From UHGV virus genome UHGV-0117955: DNA of 11,395 bases, one strand, 5' to 3'. Below are positions 7,421 through 11,395 of the stretch, piece by piece. Position 1 is the first letter of the stretch. Every line of letters starts with the position of its first letter. Below the pieces are notes generated by a model that was not told where the DNA came from, made no database searches, and was given only the letters and a program-made list of their open reading frames with translations. The translations under genes were made by a program, and so were the position numbers. This stretch comes from a virus.

Positions 7421-10153
7421 ATGACAGACATTACAGCTAATGTTGTAGTGAGTATGCCTTCGCAACTCTTCACTATGGCTCGTTCTTTTAAAGCCGTAGC
7501 TAATGGCAAAATTTATATCGGTAAAATTGACACTGACCCTGTAAATCCTGAAAACCAGATTCAGGTTTATGTGGAGAACGAAGACGGTTCTCACGTTCCT
7601 GTTGCACAGCCAATCGTCATTAATGCTGCTGGATATCCGGTATATAACGGGCAGATTGCCAAATTCGTAACTGTGCAAGGCCATTCTATGGCTGTATATG
7701 ATGCGTATGGCACGCAGCAGTTCTATTTCCCTAATGTGCTGAAGTATGACCCGGATCAGTTACGGCAGCAATTAGAAGATCCTGATGGTGCTAAAAAATA
7801 CCCTGAATTACAGATTGCACGATGGCGGGATGATAAAGACGTTCGCGGGTGGGGGGCGGATGACTCTGGGAATAGAGATTCAACACAGGCTTTTCTTGAC
7901 GCCGCATCTAGCGCAGGAAAGAGTGGTTTGGTTCATGTGCCTTCTGGTGAGTTTATAGTTGATGCATCGAAAATAGATATTTCACGCTTCTCCGGTGATG
8001 GTGTTCTAATCAGTAATGGTGTTCGCATTTCTGTTAATCCGCCGATGCAAAGTTTCTCCATTGGACAAAGAAAACTTGCGACCCTGAATTTTGGTGATGA
8101 TATCAATGCGCCAACTATATATGCGAATGCACAAAATGCATTGCAGGGAATAGCTTGTGTAAGGCATGAAGGTATTGAGAAGGTTTTTATCACTCAACAG
8201 GTTGGAGGTTCTAACTGGGGAAAGGACACCCTCACAAGGATCAGTGAGTGGCACTATACAAGCGATGGTTCAACTCTTTATGTTGTGACATTTACAGAGC
8301 CATTGCCTCTTGGTCACGGTTCAGATCTTTCTGCCACAATAGAGAACGGTGAACTATATCTGTTTACAACAACAATTGCTGAGACTGGTTCCTCTCTAGG
8401 AGGGAAGGGGTATTCAAAGACAAAATGGAAAGGGGCATCAACATCTGCTGAAGATATAACTCATTACCGAGTATTTGGTGAGCCGGGTGATAATAATCTG
8501 ATTAACCTTGCGCAGCGGGCAAGTATTTGTGTATCTAATGATGGGCGATATGTCATATTAATTGCGACATCAAACGCTGGGACTGGCCGCTTTTTATACG
8601 TATATGATCGCAAAGAAGTGGAATCTTCTTCTAACCCAATGAAAGTTAGACCGATTAATGGTCCTGTTCCACTTGTCCGTGGTAAAGGTCAGTATGGTGC
8701 AACACTTCAGGGTATTACATCAGATAGCAGATATATTTACACAATTTGGGGTGGCGTTCCTGCAAGATGCGTAAGGACAGTACAGATTTATGATATGGGT
8801 GGTACGCTAATACGTTCATTTCCTGTATCACTTGCCGCATCACTTTATACAGAGACTCAGTTAAATGGTTCTGACTCTAAAATCGGAGTTCCGGTTAGCT
8901 TTGAGCCTGAAGGGCTGGCAATAAGAGGTGATGAACTTGTCTGTGGTGCTATGGATGTATGGAAAAGCGCAGGGGATGTTGTAAGCCATCGTGGTAAAAA
9001 TTGGGTAAGTATTGTTACTGGTGATAACAAGGGAAATCTTCCGACAAACAGGTCTTATTGGTTAAAAACATCGCTTGCAGCGACAAGTGGTGAATGGGAT
9101 TCAGGCGCAACATATAAATCAGGTGATTATACTCGCAGAAATAAGCATCTGTTTGGAATAGCAAACCTGTCTGATATTCTTGGCAACCATCCAGTGCATG
9201 GTGCAGAATCCGATCCGTATACCGGAACCGCGCATCAATATTATGCTGGAACTGATATCGCCTTTAACCGTGAGCACGGTTCATTTACTATTGCGATATT
9301 TGACGAAGCCATTGGAGAGTATACCAAATCCCTCGAGTTGAATTATGGAAATAACCTTAACCTGTTTGATACAGATTACGGACATGACAATAATTCATGG
9401 GTAAGTACGAAAGCAGTATTCGACTCAAACTTTCGAGGTATGCAGTTCCGTTCTAAAGATGGGAATACTGCGGGTGGTGCTTATATTGATATCCATGCTG
9501 CTGATTGTCCATCTGCGGCTGGTGAGTTGATACTTGCCTCTACAGATGGAGGTGTCGTCAGACTTAAGCAGGGGAATGTAACAGTATTTTCTGCGACTAA
9601 AGATACTACATCGACATGGGCGACGACGACATTAAGGCCAACAACTGATAACCAGGTATCACTTGGAAGGTCCGTTAACCGCTTTTCTCAGGTCTACGCA
9701 GGGACTGCAACTATAAATACATCTGATGCAACAGAGAAAACGGAAGTCAGAACTCTTTCCGATAAAGAGCAGGCGGTTGGGTTAGCTCTTGTTGATGAAA
9801 TTGGTTTTTATCAATGGCTTGATAGTGTAAAAAATAAGGGAGCTGATGCCAGACTTCATGCCGGACTTACGGTGCAACGGGCAATGGAAATATTCAGAGA
9901 GAATGGACTTGATCCATTTAAATACGGAGCGATCTGCTATGACAGATGGGATGCATATGCAGATACAGATCCTGCTATTTATGATGATAAAGGTAACCTT
10001 GTTCGTGAGGCTATAACTATTACGCATGAAGCAGGAGAACGCTATGCATTCAGAAATGATGAATTACAGTATCTAATGATTGCTGCATTAGGTATACGTC
10101 AGAAAAATATTATAAAGAGGATTGAAGAACTGGAAAATAAGCTTGCAAATTAA
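7421..10153 (+). CDS. Tailspike protein: P22-type N-terminal head-binding domain fused to a divergent receptor-binding/depolymerase body
   Basis: GGAG at 7409-7412, ATG at 7421. The first ~115 aa ([11 protein letters not shown]…[39 protein letters not shown]…[13 protein letters not shown]…NVLKYDPDQ) are near-identical in pattern to the N-terminus of P22 gp9 as recalled. The rest (about 795 aa, against 667 aa total in P22) is unlike the P22 endorhamnosidase body. The last ~142 aa resemble a C-terminal intramolecular chaperone module: a TSD motif at Ser768 (nt 9722-9724), then [20 protein letters not shown] and a terminal coiled-coil-like [14 protein letters not shown]. Confidence 0.85.
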
Positions 10154-10235
10154 CTATTTTACTGACACCTTAAGTCTCAATATTACCAATTGAAGTCTAT
10201 GTTTTTTGGGTGTTTTAGTAATTTGTTATAGATAA

Positions 10236-10274
10236 ATGTCACTCCTTAAAGATATCGCATTCTAGGAGTGACAT
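10236..10274. repeat. Perfect 11-bp inverted repeat (stem-loop) between convergent genes
   Basis: ATGTCACTCCT (10236-10246) and AGGAGTGACAT (10264-10274) flank a 17-nt loop containing GATATC. It lies between the tailspike stop (10153) and the acetyltransferase stop (10309). No clean T-tract on either side, so it is not a canonical intrinsic terminator. Confidence 0.6.
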
Positions 10275-10308
10275 GTGATTTACTTGTCGTTCAATATATG
10301 GTGTGTTT

Positions 10309-11019
10309 TTATTGTTTTTCTTTTGTTAGGTTCCAATATTCACTTGTGGTTTTTATGGAGTCCTTATTAGGCTTTACATAAGGTTTATGTATGGAGAGAT
10401 GAGGTCTTTCCCAGGCAATGTCTTTTTTTATTACTCTTGCTGGAACTCCTGCTGCAATAGAGTTATTTGGGACGTGTCCTTTAACAACAGCTGCATAGCC
10501 AATAACACTACCACTTTCGATTTCTGCACCACCAAGTATTGCCGCTCGGCGGCCAACCCAGACATGACTTCCAATATAAATAGATTTTGGCATATTTATA
10601 CGTTCACCTGTTACTACACTAAAAATAGGGTGGGAGTCATCAGTTTTAACTTCATTTCCACTTGAAAACATGCAGTCATCGCCAATAATTATGCTTGAGT
10701 TTTCTACAGCAGAAATCATACCTTTACCAGTGCAAGTGAAATCAGAGCCTATTTTTATGGAGGAATTCTCACCCACTCTTATATGGGCTTGTATACCTTT
10801 GTTTGCGATATGGCATGGGCCAATTTCAAAATACCCATTGTTGCAGTCAAAATATATCTCAAAATATTTTAATGATGCATCTTTATGAATGATAAGTTTA
10901 TTATTAGATCCTCTAAACTGAATTAGTTTGACGTCACAACTACCTTCGTACTGGATCTCATTACCCATTTCATCAGAATACTTCTCTGCTTTTGTTAAAA
11001 CAACTTTTCTAATTTTCAT
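10309..11019 (-). CDS. Hexapeptide-repeat (left-handed beta-helix) acyl/acetyltransferase; candidate lysogenic-conversion enzyme
   Basis: The C-terminal half carries typical hexapeptide-repeat motifs (IGDDCMFSSGNEV…IYIGSHVWVGRRAAILGGAEIESGSVIGYAAVVKGHVPNNSIAAGVPARVI). Strongly AT-rich relative to the structural genes. The track ORF begins at a TTG (11043); the first ATG is at 11019 (MKIRKVVL…), and neither has a strong Shine-Dalgarno sequence, so the start is uncertain. Stop TAA at 10309-10311. Confidence 0.75.
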   Translation of the reverse strand: MKIRKVVLTKAEKYSDEMGNEIQYEGSCDVKLIQFRGSNNKLIIHKDASLKYFEIYFDCNNGYFEIGPCHIANKGIQAHIRVGENSSIKIGSDFTCTGKGMISAVENSSIIIGDDCMFSSGNEVKTDDSHPIFSVVTGERINMPKSIYIGSHVWVGRRAAILGGAEIESGSVIGYAAVVKGHVPNNSIAAGVPARVIKKDIAWERPHLSIHKPYVKPNKDSIKTTSEYWNLTKEKQ

Positions 11020-11091
11020 ATTATCAATAAGTAAAAAATGCAAATGAAAATTTCAAATTTACATTATCTGGCGAGGTAATGCAACACGGAT

Positions 11092-11147
11092 GATTGGGGG
11101 GGCAGTATAATCACAATATCAACTAAAACATACCAGATGGGGGGGCA
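11092..11147. repeat. Two homopolymeric G7 tracts in a repeated GAT(T)GGGGGGGCA motif
   Basis: GATTGGGGGGGCA (11092-11104) and GATGGGGGGGCA (11136-11147), with the G7 runs at 11096-11102 and 11139-11145. TATAAT at 11106-11111 lies between them. Located 50-130 bp upstream of the acetyltransferase start, on the opposite strand. Confidence 0.6.
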
Positions 11148-11263
11148 TGCCTCATCGAAGTAAGGCAATTTTGGACACTGTCAAATAGAATGGTGCAATC
11201 ACTACTTTTTTGGTGTTACCATGATTTTAATGGATGAAAAACTTGCTGTGTCAGTTTTTCATC

Positions 11264-11284
11264 TGTGTACCAGATTGTGTACCA
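11264..11284. repeat. Tandem direct repeat TGTGTACCA x2
   Basis: TGTGTACCA at 11264-11272 and 11276-11284, separated by GAT. It lies in the AT-rich non-coding region upstream of a gene start at the window edge (AAGGA at 11381-11385, ATG at 11391). Confidence 0.5.
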
Positions 11285-11395
11285 ATTTAGCGATTGTTGG
11301 CTAGATGGTATCGTAATCAACTGTAAATAAACAAGTTTTCTCTTTGTATGTGATCTTTCGTGTGGGTCACCACTGCAAATAAGGATATAAAATGC

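What the first reader, a model, noticed from the sequence alone, without database searches (positions are those of the whole stretch)
11092..11147. Paired G7 homopolymer tracts upstream of the acetyltransferase: possible contingency (phase-variable) element
Two nearly identical GAT(T)GGGGGGGCA motifs lie about 44 bp apart in an otherwise AT-rich region, with a TATAAT hexamer between them. Runs of seven G are unusual in enterobacterial intergenic DNA and are the classical substrate for slipped-strand mispairing. Length changes here could switch expression of the adjacent conversion gene on and off, or the tracts could form an unusual DNA structure.
Basis: seen in the sequence. Interest (0 to 1): 0.5.

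Follow-up and report, generated by a model that had tools for sequence, protein, structure and literature searches.

The report
Paired slippage-prone G-runs beside prophage acetyltransferase
Two identical runs of seven G lie between a prophage acetyltransferase gene and the host's essential thrS gene; their length does differ between E. coli strains, but no more than an ordinary E. coli G-run, so they look like mutational hot spots, not a proven on/off switch.

Summary
TGGGGGGGCA occurs twice (11095-11104 and 11138-11147), 43 bp apart, in AT-rich non-coding DNA, with TATAAT between the copies. These are the only G/C runs of 7 or more in 47 kb of prophage and flanks.

The window is the right end of a P22-like prophage inserted in the thrS leader. 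The tracts sit between a NeuO-like acetyltransferase gene (minus strand, ATG 11019) and a phage-borne replacement thrS promoter.

Tract length does vary. In 29 assemblies tract 1 is G8, G7 or G6, or G6 with the next C lost. Tract 2 is G7, G6 or G5. That is about 22 times more change per base than in the surrounding 1.2 kb.

Three results argue against a true contingency switch:
- The states are stable within lineages.
- Length, spacing and even repeat identity are unconstrained.
- A control G-run in the core genome (chbR-celF) shows the same G5-G8 spread.

A prophage remnant with 99.8% identical integrase lacks the tracts, so they are not integration sites. No convincing promoter spans a tract.

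Verdict: real, non-random, slippage-prone tracts. They are most likely neutral, or at most a weak expression rheostat. A phase switch is unproven and fairly unlikely.

The parts
11095..11104 (+). Copy 1 of the 10-nt direct repeat TGGGGGGGCA (G7 tract 1 at 11096-11102). It lies at the junction between the acetyltransferase cassette and DNA shared with another thrS-site prophage type.
   Evidence: Homology to the 2452/A26-type element starts at about 11106. Length states G8, G7, G6 and G6-minus-C are seen in other assemblies.
11138..11147 (+). Copy 2 of TGGGGGGGCA (G7 tract 2 at 11139-11145). It is embedded in DNA homologous to other thrS-site elements, which carry TTAGACGATG at this position.
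   Evidence: Length states G7, G6 and G5.
11105..11137 (+). 33-bp AT-rich block between the tracts. It contains TATAAT (11106-11111) and the segment TCACAATATCAACTAAAACA, which is conserved in the second prophage type.
   Evidence: No good -35 element lies upstream of the TATAAT.
10312..11019 (-). Hexapeptide-repeat acetyltransferase of 236 aa, NeuO-like; a low-G+C cargo gene (moron).
   Evidence: Pfam Hexapep. PDB 3jqy polysialic acid O-acetyltransferase E = 2.7e-32. 38.5% identity to CUS-3 NeuO. RefSeq names it 'acyltransferase' WP_001313877.1.
11056..11084 (-). Best sigma-70-like candidate promoter for the acetyltransferase: -35 TTGCAT (11084 to 11079), 17-nt spacer, -10 TAAATT (11061 to 11056). 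Tract 1 would then lie at about -47 to -53. This is a prediction only.
   Evidence: Home-made position-weight scan, score 9.8. The tool's stricter consensus scan did not report it.
11166..11340 (+). Phage-borne replacement for the thrS promoter and leader domains 4 and 3. The presumed -10 is TACCAT at 11217-11222, which puts the presumed start near 11230.
   Evidence: About 90% identity to the thrS upstream region of all 5426 E. coli genomes. Alignment to K-12. The native copy is displaced to attL. The K-12 -10 TAACAT lies 162 nt before the ATG (the 162-nt leader length is from my own knowledge).
11341..11363 (+). 23-bp segment TCTTTGTATGTGATCTTTCGTGT, identical at attL and attR. This is the crossover (core) region, inside thrS operator domain 2.
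   Evidence: the Oslo phage attP is aligned.
11264..11284 (+). Two direct copies of TGTGTACCA, also present twice in the P' arm just before int. These are candidate integrase arm-type sites, and they are distinct from the G tracts.
10238..10272 (.). Hairpin GTCACTCCT...AGGAGTGAC between the convergent tailspike and acetyltransferase genes; a likely bidirectional terminator marking the left edge of the cassette.
   Evidence: by sequence inspection. The terminator scan reported no site.

Best explanation
The two G7 runs are a real, non-random short direct repeat in the non-coding spacer between a prophage cargo gene and the phage-supplied replacement promoter of thrS. The cargo gene is a NeuO-like acetyltransferase transcribed leftward. 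The spacer lies at the attR end of a P22-like prophage.

The runs behave as ordinary homopolymer hot spots. Replication slippage adds or removes single G's at a rate far above the local substitution rate, but slowly enough that each prophage lineage carries a fixed state.

They are not part of the integration machinery, and their length, spacing and sequence identity are not conserved. Their most likely functional status is therefore neutral. At most they act as a weak quantitative modifier. If the acetyltransferase promoter is the predicted TTGCAT-17-TAAATT, tract 1 sits at about -47 to -53. A 1-2 bp change would then rotate the upstream AT-rich block relative to RNA polymerase. That would tune expression rather than switch it.

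The identical 10-mers probably arose when one tract was copied onto the other site as a short templated patch. At site 2 the homologous sequence in related elements has the same length but differs at 9 of the 10 positions.

Shown: the anatomy, the polymorphism, its lineage stability, independence from Int/Xis, and the control tract. Inferred: the promoter position, neutrality or tuning, and the origin by patch copying.
For: 1. Context. P22-type ejection proteins, the immI genes and a tailspike with a P22 head-binding domain identify the phage type. The full prophage map in E. coli MS 16-3 is. thrS starts at the window's end.
2. Non-randomness of the pair.
3. Polymorphism. Across 29 assemblies there are six tract-state combinations, meaning at least 5 tract events in 14 bp against about 20 events in the other 1228 bp. 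That is a 22-fold excess (Poisson P = 4e-6).
4. Lineage stability. G6A/G6 is found in 8 assemblies of haplotype B from different sources, and G7CA/G7 in 14 assemblies of haplotype A.
5. No constraint. The net length change of the spacer ranges from +1 to -4. Haplotype B, whose acetyltransferase allele is on 105 contigs, has lost 'GC' and with it the perfect repeat.
6. Control. The chbR-celF G-run is G8, G7, G6 or G5 in different E. coli lineages, with invariant flanks.
7. Not integration sites. Int is 401/402 identical, the neighbouring small protein carries the same RefSeq accession, and the P' arm is about 99% identical in the 2452-type remnant. That remnant has AGCGAT and AGACGAT where the tracts are. 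The Oslo phage attP (Int 75% identical) also lacks them.
8. No alternative switch and no RNA element. There is no GATC between 10958 and 11351, no tandem or heptad repeats, no Rfam hit and no significant fold.
Against: - A perfect 10-nt repeat built on two G7 runs, in a promoter-bearing divergent intergenic region, is unlikely to arise and persist by chance. The dominant haplotype (intact acetyltransferase allele on 358 contigs) keeps both copies perfect.
- Single-step G8 and G6 variants occur on backgrounds with 0-2 other differences. The tract therefore changes faster than anything else nearby.
- A weak alternative promoter, TTGTGA-N15-AATCAT, has tract 1 in its spacer. It would improve at G8 or G9.
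- No transcription start, expression data or within-culture data were available, so a regulatory effect is not excluded.
- The assemblies were collected through protein look-ups and are not a random or phylogenetically controlled sample.
Confidence: 0.55

Rival explanations
1. Contingency or rheostat locus. Slippage in tract 1, and perhaps tract 2, changes promoter geometry and switches or grades expression of the acetyltransferase. This would give lysogen populations a mix of modified and unmodified surface polysaccharide.
For: - Tract-length polymorphism is present and is the most variable feature of the 1.2-kb region.
- The tracts lie 77-126 bp upstream of the gene, in its only possible promoter region.
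- The candidate promoter TTGTGA-N15-AATCAT gains a better spacer at G8 or G9.
- The homologous NeuO of phage CUS-3 is a repeat-controlled contingency gene.
- In Bordetella fimX, a 1-bp insertion variant of a homopolymer tract in the promoter was associated with 3.8-fold lower transcript abundance (PMC1891110).
Against: - G7 is short, and the variants are lineage-fixed rather than mixed.
- The control G-run shows the same spread.
- The tract-spanning promoter candidate is weak (4/6 plus 4/6 matches, 15-nt spacer). It would be destroyed in the abundant G6A haplotype, which still keeps an intact gene.
- Gene loss occurs through irreversible mutations.
Confidence: 0.2
2. Protein-binding sites. The two TGGGGGGGCA copies, four helical turns apart, are operators or iterons for a phage or host DNA-binding protein. 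That protein would regulate the acetyltransferase or the replacement thrS promoter.
For: - Perfect 10-nt identity, with 43-bp (same-face) spacing.
- In the 2452-type element the two homologous positions also resemble each other: TCAGCGATAT and TTAGACGATGT.
- G7-based iterons do exist in unrelated phages: 12 copies of ATGGGGGGGCA within about 500 bp.
Against: - Spacing varies from 41 to 44 bp, and copy 1 is degraded (G6A) in a widespread haplotype.
- No third copy exists anywhere in the window.
- No candidate binding protein was identified.
- The IMG/VR hits are from unrelated high-G+C contigs and match only the pattern that was searched for.
Confidence: 0.1
3. Element acting on thrS. The TATAAT between the tracts would be a second rightward promoter, or the tracts would act as an upstream insulator, adjusting expression of the essential thrS gene in lysogens.
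For: - A perfect TATAAT lies at 11106-11111, with TATAAA at the same place in the second prophage type.
- The tracts lie at about -85 to -134 from the presumed thrS start.
- Deleting the corresponding attR region in Salmonella gave a growth defect that the authors attributed to the thrS promoter (PMC12074656).
Against: - No acceptable -35 element or extended -10.
- Free variation in tract length is tolerated upstream of an essential gene.
- The native K-12 region has no G-runs.
Confidence: 0.07
4. Part of the attP P arm, as integrase arm-type, excisionase or host-factor sites.
For: - The tracts lie on the P-arm side of the crossover region.
- They flank a conserved block containing TATCAA, a partial IHF-like half-site by my reading of the sequence.
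Against: - Essentially identical Int, neighbouring small protein and P' arm occur in an element that lacks the tracts.
- The tracts are absent from the Oslo attP and from the P' arm.
- They are 200-270 bp from the core.
- TGTGTACCA repeats, present in both arms, fit the arm-site role.
Confidence: 0.03
5. A non-B DNA structure, such as a G-quadruplex or rigid poly(dG) segments, with a structural role.
For: Two G7 runs on one strand could in principle each split into G3-G-G3 and form a quadruplex with a 36-nt central loop. This is inference only.
Against: - No significant folding.
- The canonical quadruplex pattern is not met.
- Haplotypes with G6/G6 and G6/G5, which cannot supply four G3 runs, persist.
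Confidence: 0.05

Closest known systems
neuO mobile contingency locus of prophage CUS-3 (E. coli K1)
   Same: Both have a P22-like prophage with a NeuO-family hexapeptide O-acetyltransferase placed next to the tailspike at the att-proximal end, and a simple-sequence repeat associated with the gene.
   Different: CUS-3 uses AAGACTC heptanucleotide repeats inside the 5' coding region; the record annotates 19 copies. Here there are no such repeats. The repeats here are two short G-runs in non-coding DNA. The gene is antisense to the tailspike. The record shows CUS-3's int directly beside neuO, unlike here. CUS-3 integrates at argW (own knowledge) and this prophage at thrS. The proteins are only about 38% identical.
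Promoter homopolymer tracts of Bordetella fim genes and Neisseria porA, opc and fetA
   Same: A G/C homopolymer in the upstream region of a surface-structure gene, with length polymorphism among strains. For fimX, the longer (1-bp insertion) allele went with 3.8-fold lower transcript abundance (PMC1891110).
   Different: Those tracts are typically longer (own knowledge) and lie between defined promoter elements. Their switching and expression effects have been measured. Here the tracts are G5-G8, the promoter is unmapped, and a control tract is just as variable.
Ordinary polymorphic mononucleotide runs of E. coli (for example the chbR-celF intergenic G-run)
   Same: Same sequence type, even the same G7CAG context. 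Same G5-G8 range across lineages, with invariant flanks.
   Different: The prophage has two such runs, embedded in identical 10-mers 43 bp apart, which the control lacks.
Dam/OxyR epigenetic phase variation of phage gtr O-antigen modification operons (P22 family)
   Same: A P22-family prophage cargo that modifies surface polysaccharide and lies near the att end. The gtr literature surfaced in the paper search (PMC3688519), but it was not read.
   Different: That mechanism needs GATC sites within OxyR sites (own knowledge). There is no GATC between 10958 and 11351.
Mobile elements inserted upstream of thrS (Salmonella wzy locus, Vibrio cholerae Aux3, Salmonella phage Oslo)
   Same: Same chromosomal target, with duplication or replacement of the thrS upstream region (PMC12074656; PMC7721734). 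Oslo's Int is 75% identical and its attP has the same layout.
   Different: No G tract is seen in Oslo's attP (no G/C run of 6 or more in locus L013). The sequences of the Salmonella and Vibrio elements were not examined here.

Membership tests
Simple-sequence-repeat contingency (phase-variable) locus | The repeat tract lies within the ORF or between defined promoter elements of the controlled gene. | tested here: inconclusive
   The tracts are non-coding, 77-126 bp upstream of the ATG. The best promoter candidate places tract 1 at about -47 to -53, outside the -35/-10 spacer. Only a weak candidate, TTGTGA-N15-AATCAT, has the tract in its spacer. No mapped transcription start is available.
Simple-sequence-repeat contingency (phase-variable) locus | The tract is long enough for high-frequency slippage. 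Known G/C homopolymer switches usually have 8 or more repeats (own knowledge). | tested here: not met
   G7 in the window; G5-G8 across all 29 assemblies.
Simple-sequence-repeat contingency (phase-variable) locus | Tract length is polymorphic among closely related isolates. | tested here: met
   Six tract-state combinations; G8 and G6 variants occur on backgrounds with 0-2 other differences. The excess over flanking DNA is 22-fold.
Simple-sequence-repeat contingency (phase-variable) locus | Variability exceeds that of comparable repeats with no known switching role. | tested here: not met
   The chbR-celF G-run shows G5, G6, G7 and G8 among E. coli lineages.
Simple-sequence-repeat contingency (phase-variable) locus | High, reversible switching within a clonal culture, and length-dependent expression. 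| not testable with these tools
   No read-level or expression data. The review in PMC11868660 names high switching rates and reversibility as the twin defining traits.
neuO-type contingency locus (CUS-3) | A NeuO-family acetyltransferase carried on a P22-like prophage beside the tailspike. | tested here: met
   PDB 3jqy E = 2.7e-32. 38.5% identity to CUS-3 NeuO over 74% of the protein. P22-type genes are present.
neuO-type contingency locus (CUS-3) | AAGACTC heptanucleotide repeat array in the 5' end of the coding region. | tested here: not met
   No match to two tandem units with up to 2 mismatches. No tandem repeats in 10100-11395.
Dam/OxyR epigenetic switch (gtr-type) | Paired GATC sites in the regulatory region. 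| tested here: not met
   No GATC between 10958 and 11351.
attP arm-type or excisionase binding sites | The sites are conserved wherever the same recombinase module is present, and they occur in the arms of attP. | tested here: not met
   Int is 401/402 identical, the adjacent small protein has the same accession, and the P' arm is about 99% identical in the 2452-type element, which has no G tracts. The tracts are also absent from the Oslo attP.
Canonical G-quadruplex motif | Four G-runs of 3 or more, separated by short loops. | tested here: not met
   Only two G-runs, 36 nt apart. Haplotypes with G6/G5 exist. No significant fold.

The most novel reading that the evidence does not exclude
The two G-runs could be a genuine two-dial repeat rheostat in the divergent control region of a NeuO-family surface-polysaccharide acetyltransferase. 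I know of no homopolymer-based contingency element described on an E. coli prophage (own knowledge; a limited literature search found none). In this reading each tract state sets a different expression level, and possibly also affects the phage-supplied thrS promoter. It would parallel the heptad-repeat control of neuO in CUS-3 while having evolved independently.
Probability: 0.12. Interest if true: 0.6.

Novelty: new member of a known kind. Interest (0 to 1): 0.3.

Why it matters
If the tracts did tune or switch the acetyltransferase, a phage-borne surface-modification gene in a mismatch-repair-proficient enterobacterium would be using homopolymer slippage. That mechanism is better known from Neisseria, Haemophilus, Campylobacter and Bordetella. 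It would affect how serotype, phage sensitivity or immune recognition vary within lysogen populations.

As the evidence stands, the main value is a caution. Length polymorphism at a G7 run is expected in E. coli and is not by itself a sign of a contingency locus.

The surroundings are arguably more interesting than the tracts. The prophage recombines inside the tRNA-like operator of the essential thrS gene and brings its own replacement promoter and leader.

Tried and rejected
- **attP arm, Int or Xis sites: rejected.** An element with essentially identical Int, adjacent small protein and P' arm lacks the tracts, and so does the Oslo attP.
- **Dam/OxyR switch: rejected.** There is no GATC in the intergenic region.
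- **neuO-like heptad repeats or any tandem repeat: none**.
- **Structured RNA or a known RNA family: none.** No Rfam hit; fold z-scores were +0.5 and -1.3.
- **Coding potential: rejected.** Mini-ORFs and a 34-aa minus-strand ORF (11064-11168) span the tracts. The net frame changes across haplotypes are +1, -1, -3 and -4, with no conservation of frame.
- **A third, degenerate copy of the 10-mer at the left edge of the cassette: none**.
- **Searches for the inter-tract sequence in other collections.** There were no hits in species-representative genomes. The metagenome collection gave one hit, with identical tracts. No IMG/VR contig carries the tracts; a looser pattern found only one contig of the tract-less 2452 type and two unrelated hits. 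The phage collection gave only Oslo, matching the thrS-leader part.
- **Homologues of the acetyltransferase in other species.** Pusillimonas at 61% and Gilliamella at about 43% identity lie in unrelated contexts. Nothing shows whether the tracts travel with the gene.
- **The paired 10-mer pattern across IMG/VR.** It hit only unrelated high-G+C contigs. One has 12 ATGGGGGGGCA copies in 500 bp, about 3 kb from a weak terminase hit, with no informative Pfam matches nearby. I treated this as coincidence.
- **Consensus promoter and terminator scan.** It reported no promoter in 11025-11395 on either strand and no terminator.
- **Literature.** I found no paper describing this prophage, its acetyltransferase or these tracts.

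Full report
**1. The observation**

G7 runs lie at 11096-11102 and 11139-11145 on the + strand. Each sits inside the same 10-mer, TGGGGGGGCA (11095-11104 and 11138-11147). The start-to-start spacing is 43 bp. The longer motifs GATTGGGGGGGCA and GATGGGGGGGCA begin 44 bp apart. TATAAT lies at 11106-11111, and local G+C is 31-35%.

The pair is not a chance event.
- These are the only G/C runs of 7 or more in the window and in 47 kb of the same prophage plus flanks.
- About 75 kb of neighbouring chromosome, sampled from largely the same locus in two strains, holds a single other tract.
- Under a first-order Markov model, a second G7 within 60 bp of a first has a probability of about 0.006, before asking for identical flanks.

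**2. What surrounds the tracts**

The window is a metagenome contig, ENA ERZ1756037 NODE_2580, with about 5x coverage. It holds the right end of a P22-like prophage. The genes present are:
- ejection proteins gp7 and gp20-type, an Ant-like antirepressor and an Arc-like protein;
- a 910-aa tailspike with the P22 head-binding domain and an endosialidase-type C-terminal chaperone domain. Its central part has no solved relative by sequence;
- a hairpin terminator (10238-10272);
- on the minus strand, a 236-aa hexapeptide-repeat acetyltransferase (10312-11019). Its closest solved relative is the polysialic acid O-acetyltransferase NeuO (3jqy, E = 2.7e-32), and it is 38.5% identical to CUS-3 NeuO.

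The last four bases of the window are the start of thrS. In E. coli MS 16-3 the whole 40-kb prophage is present.

Comparing attL with the window shows a 23-bp identical segment, TCTTTGTATGTGATCTTTCGTGT (window 11341-11363). It lies inside thrS operator domain 2. The native thrS promoter and leader are left at attL, in front of int. In the lysogen, thrS is served by a phage-borne copy of the promoter and leader (about 11166-11340). This copy is about 90% identical to the corresponding DNA of a second prophage type and less similar to K-12.

The tracts therefore lie between two divergent genes. They are 77-126 bp upstream of the acetyltransferase ATG. They are also roughly 85-134 bp upstream of the presumed thrS start near 11230 (the 162-nt leader length is from my own knowledge).

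**3. Are the tracts part of the integration apparatus? No.**

Only 5 of 5426 complete E. coli genomes carry this exact right end. Another 71 carry a second element at the same site, the 2452/A26 type. In strain 2452 it is a defective prophage whose cargo gene encodes a P-loop NTPase.

That second element shares nearly the whole integration module:
- its integrase is 401/402 identical;
- the small protein next to int has the same RefSeq accession;
- its P' arm is about 99% identical.

Yet at the two tract positions it reads AGCGAT and AGACGAT. Salmonella phage Oslo has an integrase 75% identical and the same attP layout, and it also lacks the tracts.

The repeats that do recur in both arms of all three elements are pairs of TGTGTACCA. 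These are the better candidates for arm-type sites.

Homology between the two prophage types begins at about 11106. Tract 1 therefore marks the junction between the acetyltransferase cassette and shared DNA. Tract 2 replaces a stretch of equal length within shared DNA. That pattern suggests one copy was written onto the other site as a short patch. This is an inference.

**4. Does tract length vary? Yes.**

I collected 29 assemblies that carry this prophage end: complete genomes, draft genomes and metagenome assemblies. I compared the 1242 bp from the tailspike stop to the thrS ATG.

| Haplotype | Acetyltransferase allele | Tract 1 / tract 2 | Assemblies |
|---|---|---|---|
| A (the window's) | exact protein on 358 contigs | G7CA / G7 | 14 |
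| A | same | G8CA / G7 | 2 |
| A | same | G6CA / G7 | 1 |
| C | S151N protein; DNA differs from B | G7CA / G6 | 2 |
| B | S151N, on 105 contigs | G6A / G6 (2-bp 'GC' loss abolishes the perfect repeat) | 8 |
| D | S151N protein; DNA differs from B | G6A / G5 | 1 |

The one remaining assembly, L012, carries the haplotype A state G7CA/G7 and is counted among the 14.

This amounts to at least five tract events in 14 bp, against about 20 substitution or indel events in the other 1228 bp. The excess is 22-fold (Poisson P = 4e-6). The variants recur in independent assemblies from different sources, so they are not sequencing artefacts.

**5. Is that evidence for a contingency switch? Not by itself.**

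- The states are lineage-fixed rather than mixed among near-identical isolates.
- Nothing about the tracts is conserved. The net length change of the spacer runs from +1 to -4, the repeat spacing from 41 to 44 bp, and the 10-mer identity is lost in haplotype B.
- The control tract behaves the same way. It is the only other G7 in the neighbouring chromosome, an intergenic run between chbR and celF, and it also reads GGGGGGGCAG. It is G8 in O157:H7, G7 in K-12 and strain 2452, G6 in strains PAR and GZM7, and G5 in Nissle 1917, with invariant flanks. In 59 full-length matches among 60 evenly spaced rows of 5406 genomes, the matched lengths were 100, 101, 99 and 98 bases in 36, 3, 11 and 9 rows. 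G5-G8 lineage polymorphism is thus the normal behaviour of such runs in E. coli.
- The acetyltransferase is found inactivated by four different ordinary mutations: 10860delC, 10817delG and two nonsense changes. That sample was biased, because I found it by looking up a truncated product.
- High switching rates and reversibility are the defining traits of phase variation (PMC11868660). Neither could be tested here.

**6. Promoters**

The consensus scan found no promoter in 11025-11395 on either strand. I also ran a home-made weight-matrix scan, with hexamer frequencies taken from memory.
- Its best leftward candidate near the gene is TTGCAT (11084 to 11079), 17 nt, TAAATT (11061 to 11056). This puts tract 1 at about -47 to -53. 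There, a length change would only rotate upstream DNA relative to the polymerase.
- A weaker candidate, TTGTGA-N15-AATCAT, has tract 1 in its spacer. It would improve at G8 or G9, but it would be ruined in the G6A haplotype.
- The + strand TATAAT has no usable -35 element.

Other switch types and RNA elements are absent. There are no GATC sites, no tandem or heptad repeats, no Rfam family and no significant fold.

**7. Verdict**

The tracts are real, non-random and slippage-prone. The polymorphism is of the generic, slow, lineage-level kind, however, and no feature of the tracts is under visible constraint.

| Reading | Probability |
|---|---|
| Neutral hot spots, or at most a weak quantitative modifier of the acetyltransferase promoter | about 0.55 |
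| True repeat-based switch or rheostat | about 0.2 |
| Protein-binding repeats | about 0.1 |
| Action on thrS | about 0.07 |
| Structural role | about 0.05 |
| Integration sites | about 0.03 |

**8. Comparison with known systems and novelty**

The closest named system is the neuO contingency locus of CUS-3. It shares the protein family and the position on a P22-like prophage. It differs in repeat type, repeat location, gene orientation and integration site, so this is not a member of that family.

The tracts resemble promoter homopolymers of Bordetella and Neisseria in kind. They fail the tract-length test and the test of being more variable than a control.

Insertion of mobile elements upstream of thrS has precedents: the Salmonella wzy locus (PMC12074656) and Vibrio Aux3 (PMC7721734).

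I rate the finding as a new member of a known kind, namely polymorphic homopolymer tracts, with modest interest.

Noticed in passing
window 11166-11395; L007 6300-6610: The prophage recombines inside the thrS 5' leader. The 23-bp core TCTTTGTATGTGATCTTTCGTGT (11341-11363) is the 5' half of operator domain 2, the tRNA-Thr anticodon-arm mimic. The phage carries a replacement thrS promoter and leader. In the lysogen the native thrS promoter ends up pointing at int. In the excised phage the phage-borne copy would point at int.
   Followed up: partly
window 11264-11284; L007 6559-6581; L013 2588-2610 and about 2815-2835: Pairs of TGTGTACCA occur in the P arm, inside the copy of thrS leader domain 4. 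They also occur in the P' arm 25-50 nt before the int ATG, in this prophage, the 2452-type remnant and phage Oslo. They are candidate arm-type sites for a 402-aa integrase. One RefSeq annotation labels the N-terminal fragment of this int an 'Arm DNA-binding domain'.
   Followed up: partly
L075 20328-25032 (E. coli GMF065) and loci L065-L069: In one lineage the prophage is deleted from the int N-terminus to mid-tailspike, next to an ISEc31 insertion. The acetyltransferase (allele S151N, on 105 contigs) and the replacement thrS promoter are retained. This suggests that the right end of the phage has become fixed in the host.
   Followed up: partly
window 10817, 10860, 10874, 10959 (loci L053-L056): Four independent inactivating mutations of the acetyltransferase, two frameshifts and two nonsense changes, occur in otherwise near-identical prophages.
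   Followed up: yes
L064 14444-14450 (between chbR and celF) and L080-L083: A core-genome G-run in the context CCGGGGGGGCAGAT is G8, G7, G6 or G5 in different E. coli lineages (O157:H7, K-12, PAR/GZM7, Nissle 1917), with invariant flanks. I used it as a control. Whether it affects celF expression is unknown.
   Followed up: partly
L076 2404-2916; L077 319-669: Unrelated high-G+C IMG/VR contigs carry clusters of (A)TGGGGGGGCA on both strands, 12 copies within about 500 bp, about 3 kb from a weak terminase hit. The arrangement looks like iterons or packaging sites. It is probably a coincidence with the window's 10-mer.
   Followed up: partly
window 7421-10153: The 910-aa tailspike has the P22 head-binding domain (residues 1-118) and an endosialidase-type C-terminal chaperone domain. 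Its central part (about residues 118-705) has no solved relative by sequence, so its receptor specificity is unknown.
   Followed up: partly
window 10238-10272: A 9-bp-stem hairpin, GTCACTCCT...AGGAGTGAC, lies between the convergent tailspike and acetyltransferase genes. It is a likely bidirectional terminator, although the terminator scan did not report it.
   Followed up: no
window 11090-11110, 11137-11163 and minus strand from 11148: Each tract is preceded by an ATG and followed shortly by an in-frame stop, giving MIGGAV* and MGGHASSK*; on the minus strand the reading is MPPHLVCFS*. No ribosome-binding sites are evident, and frame is not conserved across haplotypes. This is probably chance.
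   Followed up: partly
L064 30576-48280 (E. coli 2452) and L004: A second cargo occupies the same thrS site in 71 complete genomes: a P-loop NTPase-fold protein of about 580 aa, on a defective prophage in strain 2452. Its integrase is 99.8% identical to that of the acetyltransferase-carrying prophage (MS 16-3). Its P-arm region is only 78-90% identical.
   Followed up: partly
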